A stretch of 35,790 bases of DNA. It comes from a virus (Duplodnaviria > Caudoviricetes). The stretch is from the IMG/VR virus record IMGVR_UViG_3300031965_000096, positions 1 to 35,790 of that record; one strand, 5' to 3'. Numbering within the stretch: position 1 is the first letter of the stretch; each line of letters starts with the position of its first letter. The notes under the pieces were generated by a model. The model was not told the DNA's origin, made no database searches, and saw only the letters and a program-made list of their open reading frames with translations. Shown piece by piece: positions 4,051 to 35,790 of this stretch. A program made the translations under genes and the position numbers.

Positions 4051-4660
4051 GAACTTCCCCCAAGTGGTCGAGAAGACCGGCCTCCATCTCGACCATGTGG
4101 TCCACGTGGGGGCGCACAAGGGCCAGGAGATGGAGTTCTACAAGGCGGCGGGCATCACCCGGTTCACTCTGGTCGAGCCTAATCCCGACCTGGCCGAAGC
4201 TCTCCGGACCAACTTCGGGGAAGCCCGGGTGGTCGAAGCCGCCTGCGGACCTGCCGGGGATGGCGTGCTGTCGGTCAACCGGATCGACTCGTCGTCCACT
4301 CTTGCCGAACCCCACCCTGACGACAAGATCGTCGGCCAGGTTCCGGTCAGAGTGCTCCCGCTTCGAAACGTCGCCGGAGATGCCGACTGCGCGGTCGTCG
4401 ACGCTCAAGGCCTCGAACTGGAAGTGTTGCAGACCGCCGACCTGGCACAGTTCAAGATGGTCATCTGCGAGACCTGCACCGTGCGGGACCAGACCATGGC
4501 GTCGTATTACGACGATGTCGTGGCGTTCATGGTTTCGGAGGGTTTTCGAGAGTTCTGCTATTGGGTCCGAAGCTATCAGGCGATAGCCAGATATGTGCGG
4601 GAGGTGGACCAGGGTTCACCCGACGACGAGATACGCGATGTCGTCTTCATCCGAGCCTGA
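4037..4660 (+). CDS. FkbM-family SAM-dependent methyltransferase
   Basis: VHVGAHKGQE, VEPNP and VDAQGLELEVL motifs; GTG 4037 with GGAGG RBS. Confidence 0.82.
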   Translation: MNVFENFPQVVEKTGLHLDHVVHVGAHKGQEMEFYKAAGITRFTLVEPNPDLAEALRTNFGEARVVEAACGPAGDGVLSVNRIDSSSTLAEPHPDDKIVGQVPVRVLPLRNVAGDADCAVVDAQGLELEVLQTADLAQFKMVICETCTVRDQTMASYYDDVVAFMVSEGFREFCYWVRSYQAIARYVREVDQGSPDDEIRDVVFIRA

Positions 4661-5543
4661 CGTCGTTTTCGCTCTGGGGCCGAGAGTCGGTCGGGTCGAG
4701 CTCCAATACGCCCTCCGGTCTCTGTCCAACCTTGCCCACGGGCGGGTCTGGCTGATAGGCGGGAATCCGGGATGGGTGGTCAACACGACCCACGTCCGGT
4801 TCCACGACGGGTCGGACAAGTGGAAGAACATCGCCAACAAGTGGCGGATGCTCCCCTCCCTCGAAGCCCTGTCCGAACGGTTCGTCTACACCGAAGACGA
4901 CTATTTCATTCTCGAGCCGGTAGAAGAGCTTTCCGCCTTCGTCCATCCGATGGGCCTGGATGCCCGGGTCAAACACTACAGGCGTTCGAGGAGCGGGGTG
5001 GGCGGCTGGCTGCTGGAGGCCCGCAACGCTCTCGCCGCCGGCGGGTATCACGACTGCCCGTCCTTCGAGGTTCATGTCCCGATGCTGGTCGAGAAGAGCC
5101 GGATACCGCTCCACCTCTATGCGGGCCGGTCGATGTCGTGGCGTTCCCCCGTCGGGGCGACCAGCGGACGAGAGCCGGTGTTGATGGCCCGGGACGTGAA
5201 GGTGACCAAGGCTGAAGCCCTACCGGGTGCGGTGGCCACCGGCTTTCTCTCGTCGAGCGAATCCACCTTCAAGCGTTGTGGAGCCCAGGCGCTGTTACAC
5301 GGTCTCTTCCCCGACCCCTGCCGATACGAGAAGGAGTACTACATGGACGCTTCCGAGATGCTGCCAGAGTCCTCTGAGTACGGGGCTATCTATTCAGACC
5401 AGGAGGATTCTCGGCCTCCGAATCGGACCATTTCGGTCCGTGAGGTGGTTGCGCGTCGTCACCGACTGAACAAGCCGAATCTGGTGAAGTTGGCATCCGG
5501 GCAGTGGGTGCCGGAGAGCGGAGTGTTCATCAATGAGTCGTGA
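4638..5543 (+). CDS. Stealth-like sugar-phosphate transferase / glycosyltransferase
   Basis: ELQYALRSL...P.W...LSERFVYTEDDYF resembles Stealth conserved region 2; FPDPCRYEK resembles the Stealth C-terminal motif. Confidence 0.68.
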   Translation: MSSSSEPDVVFALGPRVGRVELQYALRSLSNLAHGRVWLIGGNPGWVVNTTHVRFHDGSDKWKNIANKWRMLPSLEALSERFVYTEDDYFILEPVEELSAFVHPMGLDARVKHYRRSRSGVGGWLLEARNALAAGGYHDCPSFEVHVPMLVEKSRIPLHLYAGRSMSWRSPVGATSGREPVLMARDVKVTKAEALPGAVATGFLSSSESTFKRCGAQALLHGLFPDPCRYEKEYYMDASEMLPESSEYGAIYSDQEDSRPPNRTISVREVVARRHRLNKPNLVKLASGQWVPESGVFINES

Positions 5544-17266: not shown

Positions 17267-17371
17267 ATGTACGCCTGGCTTCCGTGGCTGATCGGCGGCA
17301 CCGTGATCGTCGTGATCTCCCTGCTCGTACTGTTGCCACGCTTGTGGGGTGGTGACGACCCGCCCGGCTAG
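17267..17371 (+). CDS. Small single-TM protein (34 aa; 57 aa if started at 17198)
   Basis: AGGAGG RBS; MYAWLPWLIGGTVIVVISLLVLLPRLW. Confidence 0.55.
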   Translation: MYAWLPWLIGGTVIVVISLLVLLPRLWGGDDPPG

Positions 17372-18381
17372 CCTGGATCGTGAGGGCTGAGCCGTTCCTG
17401 CGAGTACATACGGGGTAGGTCTTCCCTTGGCCCCTCGGTTCTCCTTCGGGAGGATCGGGGGGCTTTTCCTATTGCCGTCAGCACGATGACCGCCGCCGCG
17501 AAATGAACCTGCCCCAAGTCCGTCAATCCCAACCACACCGAGAAGTCGTTCCACAGCCAGAACGGAACAGCAGCCAACACCCACCACCGTCGCTGTGTCA
17601 GCGCCCACGCCGCCGCGGGGAACAGCACAAGATGATATCCGGGCCACGACACAGGAGGGACGAGCGCCGCAGCGACCGCGGCCAAACTCATCCCATGATC
17701 GTATGAGGTCCGGCGGGAACGCCACGCCATCACCACTCCGAACATGATCGCAGGGATATACCCGAGGAACCGGGCTATCGACGTGGTGCCCGGATGATCG
17801 AGAAACGCGCCACCATTCTCAACCAGATCCGCCACCCCACTATCCGGTACCAGCATGAGTCCCGCCACCGTGAGCACGCCGACAGTACTAACCGTCGTCC
17901 GCCACCGTTTCACAGGGAACGCGAAGATCATCGGGTACATTCGTAGCGCGGCGGCCGCCCCCACCAACACACCCGATCGTCTCGCCCACGCCACACAGAC
18001 CAGCACAGCGACCACGGATGCCATGTTCCCCGACACCACTGCCACACGAAGCGGGAAGGAGGCTGCGACCAGCACCGAAAGCACGGGCAGCCATATCAAC
18101 CTCAACTCCAACAGACGCCGGCATAGCCAGGCGACAGTTACAGCAGCCGCCACCCCCGCTGCCCGCGAGATAAGAATCGGGTCGATCCACGCGAGCGGCA
18201 TCTGCAACAGCCAGGCGGACGGCGGACGTGGAACCACACCGTATTTGTAGGGGTTTCCGCCGTTGATGATTATTTGCGCGTAGGTGGCGTCCGCGGCGAA
18301 GTCGAGCCGTCCTATCGGGATTCGCCATACGATGACCGTTGCCAGTCTCACCGCAACCGCCCACATCAAAAGACGCTTCAT
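17368..18381 (-). CDS. GT-C fold membrane glycosyltransferase (GT87 / DUF2029-like)
   Basis: Polytopic; D..Y...GGNPY...PP...PLA, GN, G..AALRMYP and PVSWPGY pattern. Confidence 0.75.
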   Translation of the reverse strand: MKRLLMWAVAVRLATVIVWRIPIGRLDFAADATYAQIIINGGNPYKYGVVPRPPSAWLLQMPLAWIDPILISRAAGVAAAVTVAWLCRRLLELRLIWLPVLSVLVAASFPLRVAVVSGNMASVVAVLVCVAWARRSGVLVGAAAALRMYPMIFAFPVKRWRTTVSTVGVLTVAGLMLVPDSGVADLVENGGAFLDHPGTTSIARFLGYIPAIMFGVVMAWRSRRTSYDHGMSLAAVAAALVPPVSWPGYHLVLFPAAAWALTQRRWWVLAAVPFWLWNDFSVWLGLTDLGQVHFAAAVIVLTAIGKAPRSSRRRTEGPREDLPRMYSQERLSPHDPG

Positions 18382-19205
18382 TAGTCCTCGTAGTTGATTG
18401 CGTAGACCGCGTTCACCAGGCGGGTCACGTTCTTGCGGGTATAACGTTTCGTTGTGTCCGGCCTCGTATGCCCCGCGAATGCTTGCGCCGCGAGTAAATC
18501 ACCGGTCCGATCGTAGACCTCTGTGATAGCCGTGTGCCGAAGCTCATGAGTGGTGATCCGCGGTATCCCCGCTTCCTCCGCCACCTTCATACACCACTTC
18601 CAGACGGTGCCCTGAGTGACATGGACCCGTCCGGCGTGACCGGGAAAAACGAAGTCGCCGCGCCGTCGAACATACCGAAGGTCATCAAGGAGCGTCGGAT
18701 GGACGGGTAGTTCCCGTGTCCGGTCGCCTTTGCCGATCGCCGTGTACCAGCTCATCTCCCGATCGAAGCGGGACCACTGCGCCGACGCTATCTCTGTGAC
18801 CCTCAACCCGAGGTAAAGCCCGAACATGACGGCGGTCCCTTCCGGCACCCAGTATCGGGCCGTCTTGTGCAGGAGTGTCGCCCGTTCGCGTTCGAGTGCT
18901 CTGCTCCTTCCCTGCGGCTGGGTGGGGACTGGGATCGCGCCGAGAGGTGCGTCGATCCCCTTCATCCGATAGAAGTATTTGAGGGCGGACCTCAACTGGC
19001 CGCGAACCGTGTGGGACTTGTGGAACGCCTCGGCCATCTCCTTCATCGTTTCGGCGTTGAGGGTGGCGAGATGTAGCCCCCGCTGGTCGCACCAGGCTTC
19101 CGCTTGGCGCAGTCGCATCTCGTAGTTGCGGATCGTGTTGTCGGTGCGGGTGTGGGCGATCAGGAAATTCCGGTATTCCCCCATCCACACAGGATGAACC
19201 GACAT
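18381..19205 (-). CDS. int: Tyrosine recombinase / integrase (compact, Xer-like, no arm-binding domain evident)
   Basis: GLRVTE (R), GKGDRTR (K), HELRH, AGH and TTKRY (Y) catalytic motifs. Confidence 0.93.
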   Translation of the reverse strand: MSVHPVWMGEYRNFLIAHTRTDNTIRNYEMRLRQAEAWCDQRGLHLATLNAETMKEMAEAFHKSHTVRGQLRSALKYFYRMKGIDAPLGAIPVPTQPQGRSRALERERATLLHKTARYWVPEGTAVMFGLYLGLRVTEIASAQWSRFDREMSWYTAIGKGDRTRELPVHPTLLDDLRYVRRRGDFVFPGHAGRVHVTQGTVWKWCMKVAEEAGIPRITTHELRHTAITEVYDRTGDLLAAQAFAGHTRPDTTKRYTRKNVTRLVNAVYAINYED

Positions 19206-19249
19206 GTAGTCGAGTCGATGGGCCTCTGGTACTAGATCCGCGTACCCGT

Positions 19250-19432
19250 TCAGGCGGGGGCCTTTGCTGGCAATCTGATGTGGGTTTCGGCTGCGTTCCG
19301 TGTCCGTGTGCGCACCAGGAGATGCCAGTGCGGACCGAGCGCACAGTCGCAGTCGGCGTAGACCTCCCAGATGCGGCCCTGCTGTTCCATCTTGTATTCG
19401 ACGCCGTTGATGCGGTAGATGCTGGCGGTCAT
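19250..19432 (-). CDS. Hypothetical protein between repressor and integrase
   Basis: ATGA-type overlap with the repressor stop; 60 aa. Confidence 0.6.
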   Translation of the reverse strand: MTASIYRINGVEYKMEQQGRIWEVYADCDCALGPHWHLLVRTRTRNAAETHIRLPAKAPA

Positions 19433-19896
19433 ACCGCCACCTTGATGGGGAGTGTTTCGGCTTGTAGACCGGTCCAGTAGTCTGGATTCGGTAGGTGCAT
19501 CATGTCGTCACGTTGGAGCCATCCGGCTGTGACGAGGGCGTTGTCGGGGTGGTCGCGGGGGAGCGGGGCGGGGTAGGAATTCAGATAAAGCGGCTTATCT
19601 GCACTCAGGTCGCGAAGACCCCGTGCCTCCTTCTCGACGGCGACGATCTGATGGATCGGCTCGTTGAGCCAGTTGTAGTCGGTGCCGGTGGCGAGGGCGA
19701 TGGCAGCTAGCAGGCGGCCCTCAGCGTCGCGGTCGGCCGATTCGACGCGACTGATGATGCTGCGGCTGATCCCATTGTGGTTCAGGATGCTCGCACACTG
19801 CACGGCGAGTTCCGTCTGGCTCATGCTTGCGCCCGCTCGGGCCATTTTGACCCGCCGCGCTACTTCGGGGTTCCCCGGTATGCCTTCCCGTTTCAT
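19429..19896 (-). CDS. Immunity repressor, XRE/Cro-CI HTH
   Basis: RVKMARAGASMSQTELA...ISRSIISRVES..R...LAAIALATGTDYNWL; divergent from the cro-like gene. Confidence 0.88.
   Translation of the reverse strand: MKREGIPGNPEVARRVKMARAGASMSQTELAVQCASILNHNGISRSIISRVESADRDAEGRLLAAIALATGTDYNWLNEPIHQIVAVEKEARGLRDLSADKPLYLNSYPAPLPRDHPDNALVTAGWLQRDDMMHLPNPDYWTGLQAETLPIKVAV
19578..19605 (-). other. dif-like recombination site (candidate attP) inside the repressor gene
   Basis: Minus strand AGTGCAGATAA-GCCGCT-TTATCTGAATT: 11-6-11 layout, 8/11 identity per arm to E. coli dif. Confidence 0.68.
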
Positions 19897-19933
19897 GGCG
19901 TTCCTCTCTGCTCGATGCTACGTGGCAATGTGG

Positions 19934-19963
19934 AATATACGCACCTTGCGCACCACGTGTCAA
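19934..19963 (-). promoter_or_regulatory. Leftward sigma-A promoter (repressor/int operon)
   Basis: Minus strand TTGACA-18 nt-TATATT. Confidence 0.8.
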
Positions 19964-19991
19964 GCGGTCTCGTCAGTCACGAGCAAGATGC

Positions 19992-20020
19992 TTGACAGTG
20001 CGTCGCTTGCGCATTACGGT
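19992..20020 (+). promoter_or_regulatory. Rightward early promoter, probably giving a leaderless cro mRNA
   Basis: TTGACA-17 nt-TACGGT; ATG 20029 lies 8 nt after the -10 with no SD. Confidence 0.8.
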
Positions 20021-20028
20021 GCATTCCC

Positions 20029-20250
20029 ATGGCTGGAACATCACAACGGGATATGGCCGACGTCATCTTCAGAACCAGAGGACCCGGCTACCCCATCCTC
20101 TCCTTCATCGCACACAAGCGAGACGAAGACCCCCCGGCCTCCTGGAAAGACATCGCAGACGCAATCGCAGAGATCACCGACGGCGCCGTCGAGGTAGGCC
20201 GCGACACGATCCGCCGCTGGCACGAAGCGGCCCTCGAGGCCGTCGCGTGA
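20029..20250 (+). CDS. Cro-like HTH protein
   Basis: SWKDIADAIAEITDGAVEVGRDTIRRW; first gene of the divergent early operon. Confidence 0.72.
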   Translation: MAGTSQRDMADVIFRTRGPGYPILSFIAHKRDEDPPASWKDIADAIAEITDGAVEVGRDTIRRWHEAALEAVA

Positions 20251-20669
20251 GCATCGATCCTCGCATTCTGGAAGCGCGTAAGAACCCCCGCCGCACACAG
20301 AAGCGGTGCTCTGAGTGCCGCCAAACAAAGACGCTCGACGGGTACCACCTGGGCAGCTCGACGATCGACGGTCGGTCGAACAGATGCAAAGAGTGCGCCA
20401 CCGCTGCGGCCACGGCATGGAGGTTGGCCGAGGCGCCGCGCTCCAAACTGCCTGTGAGCGCCAAGACGTGCCCCGCGTGCTGCGTGGAGCGGAGTGCGTC
20501 GCAATATCGCAAGTCTCGGCATCGGCCCGACGGGCTCCAGACATATTGCAACGAGTGCCAAGACCGCCTCGCGGCCGGAGAGACCGTCGTGGACATCCGC
20601 CGCAGTCGAGGGCTGCCCACCATTCGACCGAGAAGGGTGTTCTCGCTGCGCAGGGAGGCCGTCGCGTGA
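20247..20669 (+). CDS. Double zinc-binding protein (two CxxC...DG....CxxC units)
   Basis: CSECRQTK..DGRSNRCKEC and CPACCVER..DGLQTYCNEC. Confidence 0.75.
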   Translation: MSIDPRILEARKNPRRTQKRCSECRQTKTLDGYHLGSSTIDGRSNRCKECATAAATAWRLAEAPRSKLPVSAKTCPACCVERSASQYRKSRHRPDGLQTYCNECQDRLAAGETVVDIRRSRGLPTIRPRRVFSLRREAVA

Positions 20670-20758
20670 GCTTCCTATACCGCATCGATCTGATCGTCCG
20701 CCTGTCCGAATGGTGGGCCGACCGTCGCCTCGCCCGGAGTCTCCCATGGTTGATGTGA
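20666..20758 (+). CDS. 30-aa hypothetical protein
   Basis: GTGA overlap and GGAGG RBS. Confidence 0.5.
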   Translation: MSFLYRIDLIVRLSEWWADRRLARSLPWLM

Positions 20759-20901
20759 GAGTCCGTCCACGCCGAACCGCCTGTCCGCACCCACTGCTCC
20801 TGCTGCGGCTCCCGCCTCTTCGATGTGGGCGGGATGGTCGCATGCCGGAACTGTGACACCCCCATGCCGGGGCTTCCACCGTCGGACCGTCAGGTCGCGC
20901 G

Positions 20902-21063
20902 ATGATCCGCACTGTTTGGGAGCAGACCGACGTTCCCGGCGTCTGGGTGAACGCGGGCGTCGCCTTCGACTTCCCGGCAGCCGACTGGCGGACCGTCATC
21001 CTCGTGTTCGCCGCCGCCTGGGGCGTGTCGTGGGCTGTGCTGATAGCTACGGGGCGCGCATGA
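20902..21063 (+). CDS. Small membrane protein (53 aa)
   Basis: ATGA overlaps; C-terminal TM segment VILVFAAAWGVSWAVLIA. Confidence 0.6.
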   Translation: MIRTVWEQTDVPGVWVNAGVAFDFPAADWRTVILVFAAAWGVSWAVLIATGRA

Positions 21064-21131
21064 TCTGGCTGCTGCTCTATCTGACTGTGGTCGCCGTGAT
21101 CCTCGTCGCCAACCACGGAGCCCACCGATGA
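21060..21131 (+). CDS. Tiny membrane peptide (23 aa)
   Basis: MIWLLLYLTVVAVILVANHGAHR; ATGA overlap at both ends. Confidence 0.55.
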   Translation: MIWLLLYLTVVAVILVANHGAHR

Positions 21132-21301
21132 ACCGGCAACGCTGGGCGGGGCCCATTCTCGCAGGGCTGATCGGGCTCAGCGTCGGTGTCTTCGCCGCGG
21201 CGCTCGGTTGGCCTCTTATCGCCAGCCTGTCGATGAGTGTGGCCCTCGTTTTTACTGCCGCTCTGGCGGGGTGGTGGAGCGAATGGTGGGACGCCCGATG
21301 A
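21128..21301 (+). CDS. Small two-TM protein (57 aa)
   Basis: GGAG RBS and ATGA overlaps; MNRQRWAGPILAGLIGLSVGVFAAALGWPLIASLSMSVALVFTAALAGWWSEWWDAR. Confidence 0.62.
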   Translation: MNRQRWAGPILAGLIGLSVGVFAAALGWPLIASLSMSVALVFTAALAGWWSEWWDAR

Positions 21302-21504
21302 GCCGTTTCTCCACCGACATGCAGATCGTCGGCCTCGTCCTGGTCGTCTGCTGGCTCGTCTTCTACCTGGGCCCCGTGTTTCTGAAGGCGCTGATCGATC
21401 CGTACGCCGACGACTTCGACGACGTCGACGGGCTGGCGAAGCGTGACAGGTTTCCCGACCGGCAGAACCTCCACCCACGGTCGGGAGGGGAGAGGCCGGG
21501 CTGA
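21298..21504 (+). CDS. Small single-TM protein (68 aa)
   Basis: ATGA overlap; IVGLVLVVCWLVFYLGPVFL. Confidence 0.62.
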   Translation: MSRFSTDMQIVGLVLVVCWLVFYLGPVFLKALIDPYADDFDDVDGLAKRDRFPDRQNLHPRSGGERPG

Positions 21505-21612
21505 CCGATCCTGGCAACCAACAGTCCTGGTCTCTCCCCAGACACAACGAAAACCAGCGGCATCGACCCCGAGTTAGGACGCCGATGCCGCCGATACGGA
21601 AGGAACAATACA

Positions 21613-21816
21613 ATGAGATTCACTGTCGACCGGGACACCCCTCCGGGTGCCCCATATCAGGTGGGCCGAGCCTATTCGGCGTCTGAGAACCGGATCGAGG
21701 TGTGCCCGGTTTGTGAACGGTCCGCCCATACGACCGTCGAGACGAAAGCGGACCGGGGTCGCCGGTTCGTGGACTGTCAGGGCGAGCCGATCGACATGGC
21801 CGGAGTGCGGACATGA
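21613..21816 (+). CDS. Small hypothetical protein (CPVC)
   Basis: GGAAGGA RBS; coupled to the next gene. Confidence 0.6.
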   Translation: MRFTVDRDTPPGAPYQVGRAYSASENRIEVCPVCERSAHTTVETKADRGRRFVDCQGEPIDMAGVRT

Positions 21817-22250
21817 GCGACTACAAGCATTGGCTCCGCACGTTCGACCATGACGACGAGGAGAAGGCTGCGACCGACGCGCTCGACGATCTCGGGCGTC
21901 TCAACCAGGTGGCTCGTTCTCTGCTGTTGCCGATCCTCGCGGAGGCGATCCTCATGGTCCGCCGTGACGATGCTCGGACGGTGGAACGCCAATTCGACCT
22001 GTCCAGAGTGTTCTCGGGTGAAACCACACTCGACCAGCGGGCTACCCGGCTGTCACAGTCGTTCGTGCTGGGCGACGGTCGTCGGGTGACGTGGGACGAG
22101 GCCACCGAAGAGGACCATCGGGCTCGCATCGAATACTTGTCGGTTCATGTTCGTGGCGTGCTGGAAACCATTTCACGTCATGAGGAGGCCATCGGACTGA
22201 TCCGGGAGCACGGTGTTTCGTGTCTGGGTGAGATCGAGGTGGCAGCGTGA
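21813..22250 (+). CDS. Hypothetical protein directly upstream of the Tas-like gene
   Basis: 145-aa helical ORF with ATGA and GTGA coupling on both sides. Confidence 0.78.
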   Translation: MSDYKHWLRTFDHDDEEKAATDALDDLGRLNQVARSLLLPILAEAILMVRRDDARTVERQFDLSRVFSGETTLDQRATRLSQSFVLGDGRRVTWDEATEEDHRARIEYLSVHVRGVLETISRHEEAIGLIREHGVSCLGEIEVAA

Positions 22251-23269
22251 CCGCCCAGCCGTACCGCCAGCCCGAAGTCGTGACGGAAGCCACCGGGCGA
22301 ACGGCTGGCGGTACTGACCATTCCCCCGAGTCCGAGCGCCAGCCGACAGCCAAACGACTTCCGGCTCGGGGGGACTTTCTTGACTTGCGCATATGGGCCG
22401 AGTCGTACGCGGACGTCCAACAGAACCGGATTGCTCTCGTGAACCGGATGGAGCGGGGCGGCATCGACGGCGACCTCCTCGCAGGACACAGGGCCATGCT
22501 CGAAGCGTCGGAGAACGCGTTCCGTCTGTCAATGGTCCGCTCCTACCGGCGCACCGTCCGCCAGTCCATGCCCGACGTGGAAGCCTGGCAGAAAGGGTCG
22601 TTTGGGATCGGTGAGCATCTGCTCGCCCGTCTGCTCGGCACCCTCGGCCATCCGGTCATCGCCACCCCGTATGCGTGGATGGACGACGCCCTCGACGGCC
22701 ACGTCTGCATCCCTGAGCGGTGCGGTAAACGGCACCTCGTAGCGTTCGAGCCGTACCGTCGCACCCTCCGCCAACTCTGGTCCTACTGCGGTCACGGCGC
22801 TCCTGTCCGTCGCCGCAAGGGGATGAGCCAAGAGGATGCGTTCGGTTTGGGTTCTCCCCGATGCAAGATGCTGGTGCATTTGCTCGCTGAGGGAACCATC
22901 AAATGTGGCCCCCAGCCCATTTCGGACCCGACAGCCATGAGGGCCGCGGCTGGGGCCACCCTTCCCCCGAAGCCCTGGCCCTTGTCGATAGCCAAAGAGA
23001 ACGCGGCTTCGGGGGATTCTTCCCCGCCCAAAACCCCATCGGAAGCCATACGGGTTACGGCGGGTTCCGGTAGCGGCGCAAGCTCCATTGCCGTCGCGAC
23101 GGCCGCTGCACGTTCGGGCAAGTACCGCTACCGGAACATCTACGACCGACGCCGTGAGGCCACCGTTGATCGGGAATGGACCCCCGGCCACTCCCATGCA
23201 GACGCCCTCCGCATCGTCGGCAAGGAGATCCTTCGTGACCTGTGGCAGACCGCAGGGGGTGGCGCATGA
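22247..23269 (+). CDS. IS110-C-terminal / Nop-like RNA-binding protein without a nuclease domain (TasA-like)
   Basis: Coiled coil (QQNRIALVNR), then GIGEHLLARLLG, QLWSYCGH, RRRKG, SPRCKMLVHLLAE, YRNIYDRRR and GHSHADALRIVGKEILRDLW. No DEDD/RuvC or HNH domain evident. Confidence 0.78.
   Translation: MTAQPYRQPEVVTEATGRTAGGTDHSPESERQPTAKRLPARGDFLDLRIWAESYADVQQNRIALVNRMERGGIDGDLLAGHRAMLEASENAFRLSMVRSYRRTVRQSMPDVEAWQKGSFGIGEHLLARLLGTLGHPVIATPYAWMDDALDGHVCIPERCGKRHLVAFEPYRRTLRQLWSYCGHGAPVRRRKGMSQEDAFGLGSPRCKMLVHLLAEGTIKCGPQPISDPTAMRAAAGATLPPKPWPLSIAKENAASGDSSPPKTPSEAIRVTAGSGSGASSIAVATAAARSGKYRYRNIYDRRREATVDREWTPGHSHADALRIVGKEILRDLWQTAGGGA
22261..22374 (+). ncRNA. TIGR-like stem-loop guide array, units 1-2
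   Basis: U1 22261-22314 and U2 22321-22374: stem-CCN-9nt-CG(GA/AC)AGCCA-9nt-CG-stem. Confidence 0.72.
22905..23064 (+). ncRNA. TIGR-like stem-loop guide array, units 3-5, inserted in frame in the CDS
   Basis: U3 22905-22959, U4 22963-23016, U5 23023-23064; same fixed geometry as units 1-2. Confidence 0.75.
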
Positions 23270-23505
23270 AGCCGCAGACAGACCAGGTCTTGAGGCTGGT
23301 GTCCCGCCGTGAGGGCGCCTGCATGGACTCGTTCGTTCACGCGCGCATCCTCCGCTATTCGGCGCGTATCCACGAACTCCGCGAGACCGGATATCTGATC
23401 GGAGAGTCACCGTGTGACCGGACCGACCATAAGGGCCATCCCAGTTACCGGCTGGTCGCTTCACCACCGGAGAACCTCCTCGAAATGATCGAGGTATCCG
23501 CGTGA
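23266..23505 (+). CDS. Small winged-HTH protein
   Basis: ILRYSARIHELRETGYLI...YRL motif. Confidence 0.75.
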   Translation: MKPQTDQVLRLVSRREGACMDSFVHARILRYSARIHELRETGYLIGESPCDRTDHKGHPSYRLVASPPENLLEMIEVSA

Positions 23506-23708
23506 GCTGCCATACGGACGATCCGCTCCGCGACCTGGCCGTCCTCGTCCAACGGCTCGCCCTCTCCCTCGGCTACGAGCGGACCGCCGAAGAGGCCGGA
23601 CACATCATCGACAGTCTCGACGGCCCGTCGGAGTACGCCGAGGCACCGTTCGGTGCGGACCTCGAAGCCGAAGCCGGCCGAGAACGTGCCATGGAGCGTG
23701 CCCCGTGA
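23502..23708 (+). CDS. Hypothetical protein
   Basis: GTGA coupling and GAGG RBS. Confidence 0.65.
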   Translation: MSCHTDDPLRDLAVLVQRLALSLGYERTAEEAGHIIDSLDGPSEYAEAPFGADLEAEAGRERAMERAP

Positions 23709-24229
23709 CCACCGAACAACTGTTCGAACTGGTACGCGACGCCTACTCGTCGGCCATGTGGGATGAAGACTTCCCGGCCCTCGCAGACCTCGACGACATG
23801 ACCATCGACGATCTGGACGGCCTGCTCGGCCAGCTGCTGGTGCTCCGTCAGACAGTGGACCGGTTGAAGCGTCAGACTGAGACGGCGGTCGCCCGACTCC
23901 TCGGGGAGGGTGGCGCCGCCCGGGTCGGTGACGTCGTCTACCGGTATAAGCCGAAGAACTCTCAACGTGTGGTCGACCCTGACGGTCTGATCGGCTGGCT
24001 GGGTGCGGACTGGCATCACGTTGTCCCTGTCACCCGGTCCACCACGCTGCGACGTGGCGGACTGAAGGCGGTGTGTGAGCAGCGGGGCGTCGAAGTGGCA
24101 ACCGTCGAGGACACGTTCCTCGAATGGGAGACGGGCGACCCGACAGTAGATCGGATGGCGCTCGACAGGGCGCCGAAGTTCCTCCAGGCACTCACCGACG
24201 GGGAGATCATCCGGAAGGGGGCAGCGTGA
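23705..24229 (+). CDS. Hypothetical protein in the recombination module
   Basis: Coupled ORF upstream of ERF; N-terminal coiled coil. Confidence 0.72.
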   Translation: MTTEQLFELVRDAYSSAMWDEDFPALADLDDMTIDDLDGLLGQLLVLRQTVDRLKRQTETAVARLLGEGGAARVGDVVYRYKPKNSQRVVDPDGLIGWLGADWHHVVPVTRSTTLRRGGLKAVCEQRGVEVATVEDTFLEWETGDPTVDRMALDRAPKFLQALTDGEIIRKGAA

Positions 24230-24948
24230 CAGATATCGCGCGACCGGTCGGCGTGCATCAGGCGCTTGCAGCGGTCGCCGCCGACCTGGGCGGCATCGAC
24301 AAGTCGGAACGGAACACAGAACAGAACTTCAACTTCCGCAGCATCGACGCGATCGCCGGAGCCATCCGCCCCCTGTTCGGCAAGCACGGTCTGTCCGTCA
24401 CCCCCTACGTCGAGGACGTCACATACACCGAGGTCGAATCGAAGAGAGGCACGAAAGGCTACCGGTGTGTTGCTTGGGTTCGCTATCAGATCCGCCATGA
24501 GGACGGGTCCGCCGTCGAAGCCCGCATGGTGGGTGAGGCCGTCGACTACGGGGACAAGTCCACGTCGAAGGCTGTGCAGATGGCCTACAAGTACATGCTC
24601 ACCGAACTGTGCATCGTCGGTGCCGGCGACCGGGACCCTGACGGGCACACCGTCGAAGAGATGGGACGGGGCGAGCCCCTCTCCGAGCTCGAGATCGCGG
24701 AGCGGGCCACCAACAAGCTGAAAGGCGACATTCTCGAGATAGTCGGGGACAGGAAACGGGCGGTGAAGGCGTATCGGGATGCGGTGTCGTCGCTTGGCCT
24801 GGACCCGGACGAGCCGGTGCCCGGCGAAGAGCATGAGCGGGTGCTGGCCATCGTCCAGGCACTCGAAGAACCTGCCGTCGACGCCACCGATGTCGCCGGT
24901 CTTCCGCTCGACGACGCCGACAACGCACCGTTCGAGGAGCCGCAATGA
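24226..24948 (+). CDS. erf: ERF-family ssDNA annealing protein
   Basis: IDKSERN..QNFNFRSIDAI...PLFGKHGL and GEAVDYGDKSTSKAVQMAYKY motifs. Confidence 0.88.
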   Translation: MTDIARPVGVHQALAAVAADLGGIDKSERNTEQNFNFRSIDAIAGAIRPLFGKHGLSVTPYVEDVTYTEVESKRGTKGYRCVAWVRYQIRHEDGSAVEARMVGEAVDYGDKSTSKAVQMAYKYMLTELCIVGAGDRDPDGHTVEEMGRGEPLSELEIAERATNKLKGDILEIVGDRKRAVKAYRDAVSSLGLDPDEPVPGEEHERVLAIVQALEEPAVDATDVAGLPLDDADNAPFEEPQ

Positions 24949-25641: not shown

Positions 25642-26648
25642 TGTGGTACTACATGCCCTCCACCTTTGCAGCGGATACGGCGGGTTCGAGCTCGCCCTAC
25701 GACTCGCCAGTGTGCCGGTACGAACCGTGGCTCACGTTGAGCGGGACAGCCACGCAGCGGCCACTCTCGTCGCGCGTATGGAAGACCAGGCCTTGGATCG
25801 GGCGCCTGTCTGGTCTGACATCGAGACCTTCGACGGTGGCCCGTGGCATGGCCGAGTGGATCTTGTCACTGCCGGCTTTCCCTGCCCCGACTTCTCCTCG
25901 GCCGGACGGCGAGCCGGGGTTCACGGTGACCACTGGCTTTGGCCCGAATGTGCCCGTGTCGTCGGCGAGGTGGCACCCCGACTCATCTTCTTGGAGAACG
26001 TCCCCGGACTTGTTCGGCTCGGAGGTCTTACCCGAGTTCTCAGTGACCTTGCCCGCCTCGGGTTCGATGCGGAGTGGGGTTTGTTATCCGCGGCCGCCGT
26101 TGGCGCCACCCACCAGCGCGAACGGTTCTGGCTGCTGGCCTACGCCGATCAGCGGGGATGCGAAACAGAACAGCAACTCTCAGGACGCGTTGGACCGGGG
26201 CTTCAAGGGGACGTTGACGGATCGGGCGGTCCGCATGTGGGGAACACCAGCAGCGAAGGACGATCAACGGTCACCGGAAGCGTCGGCAGCGGCGAAGGAG
26301 CGGTTCGGTCGTCAGGCAGTGACCTCGTTGACAGTGCAGGCGAAGCTCTGGGCAACACCGACAGCAAGGGACGAACGCTCAGCCGACGTGGCGGGGCACG
26401 GCCGGCACTCACCAGGCAATCCGATCCTGGCCGAAATCTGGTCTGGCCACCACTCCCCGCCGACATCGAAGGGTGGGCGCACTGGATCAGCGAAGGCGGA
26501 CCTGAACCCCAGATTCGTCGCAGCACTGATGGGCGTCCCCTGGGATTGGCTGACGCCCTGCACCTCGGTGGGAACGGGCTCGTACCGCGTGTGGCTGCGG
26601 AGGCATTCGCCGAACTGGCGGTTCGTCTTGGCATTGGGGAGCGGCTGA
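25641..26648 (+). CDS. Alternative-frame partner of the C5-MTase (WxTP repeats, motif IX-like LNPRFVAALMGVP)
   Basis: 335 open codons overlapping the MTase; ATG 25641 is coupled to the upstream TGA. Confidence 0.62.
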   Translation: MWYYMPSTFAADTAGSSSPYDSPVCRYEPWLTLSGTATQRPLSSRVWKTRPWIGRLSGLTSRPSTVARGMAEWILSLPAFPAPTSPRPDGEPGFTVTTGFGPNVPVSSARWHPDSSSWRTSPDLFGSEVLPEFSVTLPASGSMRSGVCYPRPPLAPPTSANGSGCWPTPISGDAKQNSNSQDALDRGFKGTLTDRAVRMWGTPAAKDDQRSPEASAAAKERFGRQAVTSLTVQAKLWATPTARDERSADVAGHGRHSPGNPILAEIWSGHHSPPTSKGGRTGSAKADLNPRFVAALMGVPWDWLTPCTSVGTGSYRVWLRRHSPNWRFVLALGSG

Positions 26649-26668
26649 TGTCCGGATCGAGGCCCTGA
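25643..26668 (+). CDS. DNA (cytosine-5) methyltransferase, main frame
   Basis: Motif I LCSGYGG, IV GFPCPDFS, VI ENVPG, VIII HQRER, X GNGLVP. Confidence 0.9.
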   Translation: MVLHALHLCSGYGGFELALRLASVPVRTVAHVERDSHAAATLVARMEDQALDRAPVWSDIETFDGGPWHGRVDLVTAGFPCPDFSSAGRRAGVHGDHWLWPECARVVGEVAPRLIFLENVPGLVRLGGLTRVLSDLARLGFDAEWGLLSAAAVGATHQRERFWLLAYADQRGCETEQQLSGRVGPGLQGDVDGSGGPHVGNTSSEGRSTVTGSVGSGEGAVRSSGSDLVDSAGEALGNTDSKGRTLSRRGGARPALTRQSDPGRNLVWPPLPADIEGWAHWISEGGPEPQIRRSTDGRPLGLADALHLGGNGLVPRVAAEAFAELAVRLGIGERLMSGSRP

Positions 26669-27111
26669 TGGACCTGTCGAAGCAAGCTCAGATAGACCGC
26701 GCGACCTCCCGGTCTCGTCGTATCTGCCCGGACACGGGGAAGGCGCGGAAGGATTGCGTCTGCTGGTCATGCCGGAACAGCCGGAACAGTCGGAGGGGGA
26801 AGGCGGGGCAGCGGCAGGCCCGCACCGCGTTGCGTCTCGCCCCGGAACAGTTCAGGAGCCGGGAAGGCAACGAGGAAGCCTGGCGGGCTCGAGTTCGGGT
26901 CGAGGTCAAGTCGGGCGCCCAAGTCGGGCCGATAGCCACCAGGTATGTGGAGGCGCGTAACCAGTCCGACGCTCACCGGGCGATAGGAGACCTGCGTCCG
27001 TTCATCTTCGCCGTGGTCCCTGACGGTTCTGACGAGCTGCTGGTCATCGCCAAGAGGGATCTGTACGCGGTGGTTGAGGCCCTCGTCGAAGAATGGGGAG
27101 GGACGGCGTGA
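26668..27111 (+). CDS. PD-(D/E)XK nuclease, Holliday-junction-resolvase-like
   Basis: SRRGKAGQRQA...VEVKS, with an N-terminal Cys cluster. Confidence 0.6.
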   Translation: MDLSKQAQIDRATSRSRRICPDTGKARKDCVCWSCRNSRNSRRGKAGQRQARTALRLAPEQFRSREGNEEAWRARVRVEVKSGAQVGPIATRYVEARNQSDAHRAIGDLRPFIFAVVPDGSDELLVIAKRDLYAVVEALVEEWGGTA

Positions 27112-28286
27112 GCCACGCCCGCTATCTGGTCGGTGACGTGTTCGACCGTATGGCCGAACTCCCCGACGGGTCCGTGGATCTGATCTTGACATCCCCGCCG
27201 TTCCTGGCGTTGCGCTCCTACCTGCCCGCGGACCATCCCGACAAGTCCAAGGAGATCGGTTCGGAGGCGACCCCAGCCGAGTTCGTGGACACGCTGCTGA
27301 GGCTGACGGCGGAGTGGCGGCGACTCTTGGCTCCGCATGGTTCGTTGTGTATTGAGCTGGGGGACACGTATTCGGGGTCGGGCGGTGCGGGCGGTGATTA
27401 CGGCCCCGAGGGCCTCCGCGAAGGCCAACCACGATTCCGTCAGATGCCGCCAAACACAGCCCACCGCTTGCATGATGATGGGTCGCTGAAGACGGACGCG
27501 GAGACTCGGCGCAACGAGTCGAAGAACGGTGGCCACGTCACGCCGTGGACTGGCGGGCCCGGCTGGCCGATGGCCAAGTCTCTCGCCCTCGTACCCGAGG
27601 CGTACCGGTTCGCCCTCGCCTACGGCATCAACCCACACACCGGACAAGAGTCCCCCGCCGGACGTTGGCGGGTCCGGAATGTGATCCGCTGGGTGCGGCC
27701 GAACCCTCCGGTGGGAGCGTTGGGTGACAAGTTCCGTCCTGCCACTTCGGAGATGGTCGTCGCGTGTGTTTCGGGGAGCCGGTATTTCGACCTCGACTCA
27801 GTTCGGGAGCCGTGGTCAGCAAACTTGCACAGTGGAGGAGGCGTCCATAAGAAGGTGGCTGGCGTCGGACCTGGGCGAACACAGGCGGATGCCGATCGCT
27901 GGGGGGCATCACTAACAGAGAAGATCGACACGAATGGCGGCGCTCCCCCTCTTGACTGGTGGAAACTCTCACCAGGCGGCTACCCCGGCAGCCACTACGC
28001 CGTCTGGCCTGCCGAACTGTGTGTGAAGCCGATCAAGGCGATGTCACCGGAACGGGTCTGCATCCCCTGCGGCATGCCCTACCCCGCCGCAGCCGATCGA
28101 TGCCCATCCGGACATCACACCGACCACTCCCGCCCCGGACTCGTACTCGATCCGTTCGCCGGATCAGGCACCACCCTCGCCGTAGCCACCGGACACGGCC
28201 GCGACGCCATAGGCATCGACCTCGACTCGCGTAACGCCGACCTTGCTCGCGAGCGCATCGGCGAGTTCCTCGAGGTCGTCGCATGA
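27108..28286 (+). CDS. Beta-class amino (probably N4-cytosine) DNA methyltransferase
   Basis: LILTSPPF catalytic motif, then HYAVWP and VLDPFAGSGTT SAM-binding motif. Confidence 0.9.
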   Translation: MSHARYLVGDVFDRMAELPDGSVDLILTSPPFLALRSYLPADHPDKSKEIGSEATPAEFVDTLLRLTAEWRRLLAPHGSLCIELGDTYSGSGGAGGDYGPEGLREGQPRFRQMPPNTAHRLHDDGSLKTDAETRRNESKNGGHVTPWTGGPGWPMAKSLALVPEAYRFALAYGINPHTGQESPAGRWRVRNVIRWVRPNPPVGALGDKFRPATSEMVVACVSGSRYFDLDSVREPWSANLHSGGGVHKKVAGVGPGRTQADADRWGASLTEKIDTNGGAPPLDWWKLSPGGYPGSHYAVWPAELCVKPIKAMSPERVCIPCGMPYPAAADRCPSGHHTDHSRPGLVLDPFAGSGTTLAVATGHGRDAIGIDLDSRNADLARERIGEFLEVVA

Positions 28287-35493: not shown

Positions 35494-35790
35494 ATGCCCC
35501 TAACCGACGAGCAGGTGTTCGAAGCCGTCGAAGAACTCAAGAACCAGCGGTCTAAGGACATGTCCCGGCTCGACCGGATCCGCAACTACCTCCGTGACGA
35601 CCCTGACCGGAGAAACCTTGAGGGGTTGCCGTCGGGGACGCCGGTGGAGATGCAGCGTCTCGCCCGCCTGTCACGAGTGAACATGTTGAAGTTCGTGGTG
35701 AACAGCCGGGTCCAGTCGATGTATGTGGACGGGTTCCGGGCCCCCCGCGCCGATTCGGATGCGGAGACGTGGGCGGTGTGGCAGGCGAAC
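35494..35790 (+). CDS. Portal protein, 5' part (continues at the window start)
   Basis: AGGAGG RBS, ATG 35494; in frame with VEMQRLARL at the repeat. Confidence 0.9.
   Translation, partial: MPLTDEQVFEAVEELKNQRSKDMSRLDRIRNYLRDDPDRRNLEGLPSGTPVEMQRLARLSRVNMLKFVVNSRVQSMYVDGFRAPRADSDAETWAVWQAN
35637..35790. repeat. Terminal direct repeat, copy 2
   Basis: Matches 1-154 with 3 mismatches. Confidence 0.97.

What the first reader, a model, noticed from the sequence alone, without database searches (positions are those of the whole stretch)
22904..23121. Array units 3-5 form an in-frame ~70-codon insertion in the Nop-like domain (dual coding)
Seen: between LLAEGTIK and YRYRNIYD the protein reads as a low-complexity P/A/S/G linker that coincides with the three hairpins plus a short tail, and the frame stays open. 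Units 1-2 likewise make up the first ~45 codons if the coupled GTG 22247 is used (alternative start TTG 22385). Inference: one transcript is both mRNA and guide precursor, so processing guides would destroy the message (negative autoregulation). Gain or loss of units would also have to preserve the frame.
Basis: partly seen in the sequence, partly recalled or inferred. Interest (0 to 1): 0.85.

Follow-up and report, generated by a model that had tools for sequence, protein, structure and literature searches.

The report
Guide RNAs inside phage tasA gene
A phage gene for an RNA-guided DNA-binding protein (TasA) carries six guide-like hairpins in frame inside its own coding sequence, so one stretch of DNA likely serves as both message and guide source; a 2026 preprint has already described this layout.

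Summary
ORF 22247-23269 is a nuclease-free TasA of a stem-loop TIGR-Tas system in a probable temperate actinophage. Two more lie in the N-terminal tail.

Relatives support dual coding. The insertion grows by about 21 aa per unit, and pN is about equal to pS. Adjacent core units are spaced in multiples of 3 (23 of 24; 13 of 33 downstream). Translated units avoid the Arg/Pro-rich frame (0 of 52 core, 0 of 125 tail). The coupled GTG start is supported; the TTG alternative is not.

Negative autoregulation is unproven: this protein lacks the long tail that processes guides in dual-repeat Tas, and no guide targets were found. Intragenic in-frame arrays are in print (Xu et al. 2026), and this scan has met them on other DNA.

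Not found in the texts I read: the frame-choice rule, and a 145-aa partner gene beside tas in 81 of 100 loci, including cultured actinophages. New member of a known kind.

The parts
21813..22250 (+). Conserved 145-aa partner gene of unknown function, directly upstream of tasA and translationally coupled to it
   Evidence: Profile hits 81 of 100 tas loci, 78 of them upstream; AF2 pLDDT 94.8, mostly helical; no Pfam family for this protein, PHROG 4604 in 30 of 80 members
22236..22250 (+). Shine-Dalgarno-like run (22236-22242) and GTGA start/stop overlap (22247-22250)
   Evidence: Sequence; same in-frame overlap in 39 of 78 loci with an upstream partner
22247..23269 (+). tasA, 340 aa: low-confidence N-tail (1-37), coiled coil and Nop domain, no nuclease domain
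   Evidence: Family profile hits TasR 9MTY (E 1.9e-8) and TasH (1.2e-5); top 10 Foldseek hits are TasR/TasH; model; 46 of 49 conserved columns intact
22261..22314 (+). Stem-loop guide unit 1 (spacers 22275-22283 and 22293-22301), in the N-terminal tail
22321..22374 (+). Stem-loop guide unit 2 (spacers 22335-22343 and 22353-22361), in the N-terminal tail
22904..23122 (+). In-frame 73-codon insertion (residues 220-292) made of guide units 3-6; by my mapping, 'insertion 1' of Xu et al.
   Evidence: the mapping to insertion 1 is inferred from the order of segments
22906..22959 (+). Guide unit 3 (spacers 22920-22928 and 22938-22946)
22963..23016 (+). Guide unit 4 (spacers 22977-22985 and 22995-23003)
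23023..23064 (+). Guide unit 5 (spacers 23031-23039 and 23049-23057), short 6-bp stem
23072..23129 (+).

Best explanation
This phage gene encodes a nuclease-free TIGR-Tas protein (TasA) whose reading frame runs through six guide-like hairpins, which are likely translated as floppy linkers and likely also cut out of the same transcript as guide RNAs that would steer TasA to bind and silence 18-bp DNA targets. Shown here: Tas membership, the hairpin units, the open frame, and signs in relatives that the units are translated. Inferred from published systems: release of guides at the stem bases by an unknown, probably host, RNase; loading on a TasA dimer; and repression by DNA binding, most likely of competing phages or host genes. 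The embedding most likely arises because the gene sits in a translationally coupled early operon with no spare intergenic DNA. Units accrete in tolerant places (N-tail, this loop, the wedge). Selection only requires an open frame and a near-neutral linker, so the Arg/Pro-rich frame is avoided. Loss of message on processing would be a cost or a side effect, not a demonstrated feedback circuit.
For: Tas hits. Units and covarying stems. Insertion spans 8-124 aa in 117 of 120 proteins with both anchors, 52 of them at 12 aa or less; mean identity to the query 0.065 in the insertion against 0.54 and 0.62 in the core; RNA-box footprint in the peptides 116 against 19 shuffled, maximum 33 of 500. At DNA level, 21 aa per unit, r 0.88, n 97. 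Near relatives L128 and L129 differ by one unit and 48 nt. pN/pS against L044: core 0.17/0.61, insertion 0.42/0.40. Core spacings in multiples of 3: 23 of 24 against 13 of 33 downstream; by locus 12 of 13 against 3 of 15. Arg/Pro phase: 0 of 52 core units against 35 of 82 downstream; 0 of 125 units in 34 coupled N-tails against 36 of 86 in uncoupled loci, although 84 of the 125 would be stop-free in that phase. CTT in linkers 81 of 202 against 45.7 shuffled. Xu et al. sequenced intragenic guides of BlTasA and showed repression by MbTasA.
Against: No guide target above chance was found. Unit counts are not independent: the wedge loci form one lineage in the quick tree, so unit-level P values overstate the case. 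The pN/pS values are uncorrected, near saturation and rest on 30-46 aligned insertion codons in 4 pairs. 86 of 97 loci have no detected unit in this insertion, so this site is not required. Expression of the protein and of the guides from this phage was not observed.
Confidence: 0.8

Rival explanations
1. Negative autoregulation: TasA, alone or with its partner, binds the hairpins in its own mRNA and promotes cutting. More protein then means less message, and it may also cut expression of the coupled downstream early genes.
For: Geometry: any guide cut from this mRNA breaks the ORF. 50 of 100 loci hold units in translated tas. In dual-repeat TasR the protein is required for guides to appear (Faure et al.). 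Xu et al. suggest a link between maturation and translation.
Against: [quoted passage not shown] Unit position varies freely (upstream, N-tail, wedge, insertion, C-tail, downstream). Bethlehem keeps its units between the genes, so feedback is not needed for the system.
Confidence: 0.25
2. Guides are made from separate short transcripts started at promoters inside tasA, so the message is not consumed and the overlap exists only at DNA level.
For: Xu et al. state that their data cannot tell processing from internal promoters. A terminator-like hairpin follows unit 2.
Against: No sigma-70-like promoter on the + strand in 19200-24300 (a weak test in actinobacteria). CTT-enriched linkers fit a processing signal. 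Terminator-like sites numbered 3 against 2.0 in shuffles.
Confidence: 0.15
3. DNA-level self-repression: guide 2 directs TasA to the gene's own 5' end.
For: Guide 2 matches 22263-22282 at 16 of 18 positions with a 2-nt gap.
Against: Only 1 of 427 units has such a match in its own locus, against 1 in a control 2.8 times larger. The geometry that I take from published targets has no gap. No gap-free match better than 4 mismatches exists in the genome for any of the six guides.
Confidence: 0.05
4. The array is intron-like (removed before translation), or tasA is a disrupted relic.
For: Homologues with about 10 aa at this site exist, so removal would leave a normal protein.
Against: A removed or dead insert would not keep multiples of 3 or avoid one frame. 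The core is intact and under purifying selection.
Confidence: 0.04

Closest known systems
Intragenic stem-loop TIGR arrays in tas genes, e.g. Bifidobacterium longum BlTasA (Xu et al., bioRxiv 10.64898/2026.09.09.750476)
   Same: Stem-loop dual-spacer units inside the tas coding sequence, in frame, in disordered regions; nuclease-free TasA; short C-tail; CUU at some stem bases; a proposed link between maturation and translation.
   Different: BlTasA's internal guides map to the wedge loop and here to the next loop (my mapping). Here every detected unit lies inside the gene. The frame-choice rule and the 145-aa partner were not in the passages I read.
Stem-loop TIGR-TasA of Faure et al. 2025 (PMC12045711) and PlTasA (Guan et al., bioRxiv 10.64898/2026.08.11.744272)
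   Same: [quoted passage not shown]
   Different: PlTasA's array is described as three subarrays, not as in-frame inserts. Box D here is CG. The accessory gene they describe (TasParB) goes with dual-repeat arrays; the partner here has no ParB match in Pfam or PDB.
IS110-family bridge-RNA recombinases (IS621, ISCro4)
   Same: Related Nop-type fold (Foldseek ranks 11-16); PHROG label 'transposase'.
   Different: No RuvC-like domain, and a multi-unit guide array instead of one bridge RNA; the transposase label is a family-level misnomer here.

Membership tests
TIGR-Tas (stem-loop TasA) | Nop-domain Tas protein | tested here: met
   Profile hits 9MTY at E 1.9e-8 and TasH at 1.2e-5; top 10 fold hits are TasR/TasH. 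The single sequence alone finds no Tas in the PDB.
TIGR-Tas (stem-loop TasA) | [quoted passage not shown] | tested here: met
   Five intact units and one degenerate, 9-nt spacers, boxes CC[A/G/T] and CG
TIGR-Tas (stem-loop TasA) | Variable palindromic stem closing each unit | tested here: met
   88.3% paired, 6 of 12 pairs with two-sided changes, covariation reached by 0 of 500 shuffles
TIGR-Tas (stem-loop TasA) | No RuvC or HNH domain | tested here: met
   Residues 1-37 are low-confidence and encoded by units 1-2; helix 1 starts at 39; no Pfam hit
TIGR-Tas (stem-loop TasA) | Short C-terminus without the Y/H processing loop | tested here: met
   7 residues after the last conserved Trp, none Y or H; feature from Xu et al.
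TIGR-Tas (stem-loop TasA) | Array expressed and processed into single-unit RNAs bound by Tas | not testable with these tools
   Needs pull-down and small-RNA sequencing
TIGR-Tas (stem-loop TasA) | RNA-guided DNA binding or repression at an 18-bp target | tested here: inconclusive
   Target searches gave chance-level hits only; activity cannot be assayed here
Intragenic TIGR arrays (Xu et al. 2026) | Units inside the tas coding sequence, frame intact, in disordered segments | tested here: met
IS110 transposase | N-terminal RuvC-like (DEDD) domain | tested here: not met
   No such domain in the ORF or the model
TasParB-associated TasA | ParB-like operon partner with dual-repeat arrays | tested here: not met
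   The arrays are stem-loop, not dual-repeat; no ParB family among 80 partner members; feature from Faure et al.

The most novel reading that the evidence does not exclude
This clade is a two-protein TIGR system. The conserved 145-aa partner, with no known fold, is the missing maturation or spacer-acquisition factor of stem-loop arrays. Together with TasA it cuts guides out of their own coupled mRNA, so guide production throttles the operon. The arrays grow inside genes under a frame rule that forbids the Arg/Pro-rich reading.
Probability: 0.2. Interest if true: 0.75.

Novelty: new member of a known kind. Interest (0 to 1): 0.36.

Why it matters
The layout is striking but published, so this locus alone adds one more example. 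Three results go beyond the texts I read. First, there is comparative evidence that embedded guides are translated, with a simple rule: keep the frame and avoid the Arg/Pro reading. Second, the length of this loop in the clade tracks guide number, which suggests an RNA cause for a protein insertion that Xu et al. discuss as protein-RNA co-adaptation. Third, a tightly linked partner gene is a concrete candidate for two open questions they name: how stem-loop guides mature and how spacers are acquired. Cultured actinophages carry partner, tas and units (Gordonia phage BENtherdunthat, mycobacteriophages Bethlehem and Rich), so these questions can be tested in native laboratory hosts.

Tried and rejected
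Guide targets: exact 18-nt scans of viral contigs for guides 1-5 gave 1, 1, 1, 0 and 1 hits. None was a tas gene, they lay in dissimilar phage genes (two contigs measured at 35% and 56% GC), and I treat them as chance; no control scan was run. Guides 3-5 against 301 genomes of the class of G001, up to 1 mismatch, gave 2, 0 and 0 genomes; the two hits were not examined and the host class is a guess. Guide 6 was searched only in the phage genome.

General self-targeting: rejected. General targeting of other tas genes: no excess over controls beyond one perfect match, and that 18-mer also occurs in 12 non-tas viral genes.

Expression: no RNA holder listed. Laid contigs gave no cover of the insertion that shows strain variants. 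TasA-partner complex prediction: no verdict.

Partner function: no match in Pfam, PDB sequences, Foldseek PDB (best E 1.4), VIA (best Z 5.2), BFVD (best E 0.012) or the Atlas; this does not show a new fold. The reverse linkage test (partner without tas) failed: the viral scan returned no relative. Rfam: no hit. The TTG 22385 start was rejected. One search used a structure string shifted by one column; one search replaces it. The tree is the quick one; the careful search did not finish.

Full report
Context. The window is a near-complete temperate phage genome: portal, capsid, terminase, integrase and repressor are present, and the first 126 nt recur at 35637. Terminase and capsid hits are almost all actinophages, so the host is likely an actinobacterium (inference). 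The finding lies in the rightward early region, in ORF 22247-23269, which overlaps the upstream stop (GTGA) and the downstream start (ATGA).

Observation. The ORF is open across 22904-23122: 73 codons, 60% P/A/S/G against 27% in the core. A unit motif matches 6 times against 0.76 expected, and five matches are units at 22272, 22332, 22917, 22974 and 23028. Their stems pair in 88.3% of cells with compensatory changes, reached by 0 of 500 shuffles. Whole-region folding z-scores are modest. All units share one codon phase. The 'short tail' is a degenerate sixth unit at 23085-23116, 57 nt after unit 5, and aligns with the last unit of L047.

Identity. The protein has no Pfam hit and alone finds no Tas in the PDB. 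A profile of 29 homologues hits TasR 9MTY and TasH, and the top 10 fold matches are TasR/TasH. The model is confident except at residues 1-37 and about 244-288, both encoded by guide units. There is no nuclease domain, and 46 of 49 conserved columns are intact. It is a stem-loop TasA.

Dual coding, protein evidence. I aligned the query with 119 of the 120 listed hits (of 272 found; the window's own record was left out). Of these 120 proteins, 117 had both anchors. The span is 8-124 aa, and 52 are at 12 aa or less. Mean identity to the query is 0.065 in the insertion against 0.54 and 0.62 in the flanks. The amino-acid footprint of the RNA boxes occurs 116 times against 19 in shuffles.

Dual coding, DNA evidence. 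133 loci were reduced to 100 at under 90% core identity, the window's own locus included; 83 have detectable units and 50 have units in translated tas. Insertion length rises 21 aa per unit (r 0.88, n 97; 86 loci have none here). L128 and L129 differ by one unit and 48 nt. Uncorrected pN/pS against four relatives shows purifying selection in the core (0.17/0.61 for L044) and none in the insertion (0.42/0.40). Adjacent core units are spaced in multiples of 3 in 23 of 24 cases against 13 of 33 downstream; by locus 12 of 13 against 3 of 15.

Frame rule. Units read in the phase where CCA is Pro and CG starts Arg are absent from translated DNA: 0 of 52 in cores against 35 of 82 downstream. In 34 loci with a coupled in-frame start they are 0 of 125, against 36 of 86 in uncoupled loci. 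Stops do not explain this, since 84 of the 125 would be open in that phase. That phase would add about +4.8 net charge per unit, against +0.9 and -0.1 for the other two. Caveat: loci are related; the wedge group is one lineage and insertion-type loci are scattered in a quick tree. I infer selection against a basic Arg/Pro tail on a nucleic-acid-binding protein. BENtherdunthat (8 intragenic units) and Rich (3), fetched later, also have none in that phase.

Start codon. The same in-frame overlap start occurs in 39 of 78 loci with an upstream partner, and 64 of 120 proteins begin MT. The TTG 22385 codon is CTN in 8 of 8 relatives.

Mechanism. From Faure et al. and Xu et al., stem-loop units are released as single guides, bound by a Tas dimer, and direct binding to 18 bp; TasA represses transcription. 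These steps are inferred for this locus. Autoregulation needs the protein to promote cutting. Stem-loop Tas lack the Y/H loop and this tail is 7 aa; CTT is enriched in linkers (81 of 202 against 45.7) and is present after unit 2 and between units 3-4 and 4-5. I therefore favour host processing with embedding as operon packing (0.8 for the overall reading) and leave feedback at 0.25. No target was established. Guide 2 matches the gene's 5' end at 16 of 18 with a 2-nt gap, but only 1 of 427 units does so.

Partner gene. ORF 21813-22250 has relatives in 81 of 100 loci (78 upstream); 14 of the 19 misses have under 300 nt upstream. The five other neighbours tested were not conserved beyond one weak hit. 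One contig of a related phage skips 21820-23296, both genes together. The family has 4,614 clusters at E up to 0.001 and a confident helical model without a known match. Distant members hit 84 (partner) and 91 (tas) GenBank phage records; in 4 of 4 fetched, the partner precedes tas and units are present.

Literature. Xu et al. (10.64898/2026.09.09.750476; parts 1-5 of 7 and passages read) state that stem-loop arrays can lie at the 5' end, 3' end or inside tas without disrupting the frame, in disordered regions, and may link maturation and translation. 'Autoregul' and 'accessory' do not occur in that main text. Faure et al. (PMC12045711; passages, section 6 and a search of the cut Table S1) describe only TasParB as an operon partner. 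Guan et al. (10.64898/2026.08.11.744272): passages only. Searches: 'TIGR + tigRNA' 18 papers, 'TIGR array + intragenic' 1, 'bridge RNA + within the coding sequence' 0, 'TIGR + mycobacteriophage' 6, 'TasA + TIGR-Tas + accessory protein' 1 review; other papers were seen as listings only. Faure's supplementary PDF and the bioRxiv supplements could not be read and may show the partner or this locus. The scan has reported intragenic arrays on other DNA (8 of 11 findings shown).

Verdict. Real, dual-coding on comparative evidence, and a new member of a described kind. Interest 0.36. The frame rule and the partner gene are the parts worth following.

Noticed in passing
window 21813-22250 (+): Unannotated 145-aa gene linked to tas in 81 of 100 loci and in 4 of 4 cultured phages fetched; large family with no known fold; a related phage contig lacks it together with tas.
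   Followed up: partly
NC_009878.1 gp72/gp71 (L153), MG099939.1 gp58/gp59 (L154), KY224000.1 gp51/gp50 (L155), MH153807.1 gp186/gp187 (L156): Cultured actinophages (Bethlehem, BENtherdunthat, Rich, Peregrin) carry partner, tas and stem-loop units. Bethlehem's tas is annotated 'transposase'. BENtherdunthat has 6 N-tail and 2 internal units in frame.
   Followed up: partly
L061:3045-3076 and L008:200-217: One L061 guide matches the conserved first helix of another phage's tas gene at 18 of 18, while its own gene differs at 4 positions, three of them synonymous. The 18-mer also occurs in 12 non-tas viral genes, so this is only a lead for anti-tas targeting.
   Followed up: partly
window 22263-22282: Guide 2 matches the gene's own 5' end (the stem and first spacer of unit 1) at 16 of 18 with a 2-nt gap; possibly a relic of spacer origin; not general.
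   Followed up: yes
partner genes of 14 loci (e.g. L003, L007, L023, L054) and L155: Guide units also lie inside the partner's open frame, 17 of 18 outside the Arg/Pro phase; start codons were not verified.
   Followed up: partly
L023, L024, L028, L031, L033, L036, L037, L038, L120, L131: A related lineage embeds units in the wedge loop instead, all 21 in one phase.
   Followed up: partly
L011 and L133: The partner lies downstream of tas rather than upstream.
   Followed up: no
window 23424-23482: In runs X2, X3 and X5 a related phage joins this stretch in inverted orientation to 21771 and 23483, suggesting exchange or inversion around the partner-tas module.
   Followed up: no
window 17368-18381 (-), 4593-5543 (+), 25643-26668 (+), 27093-28286 (+): GT87 glycosyltransferase beside the integrase, a weak Stealth CR2 match, and C5 and N6/N4 DNA methylase genes.
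   Followed up: no
window 19934-19963 (-): Strong sigma-70-like promoter (11 of 12) facing the repressor gene.
   Followed up: no
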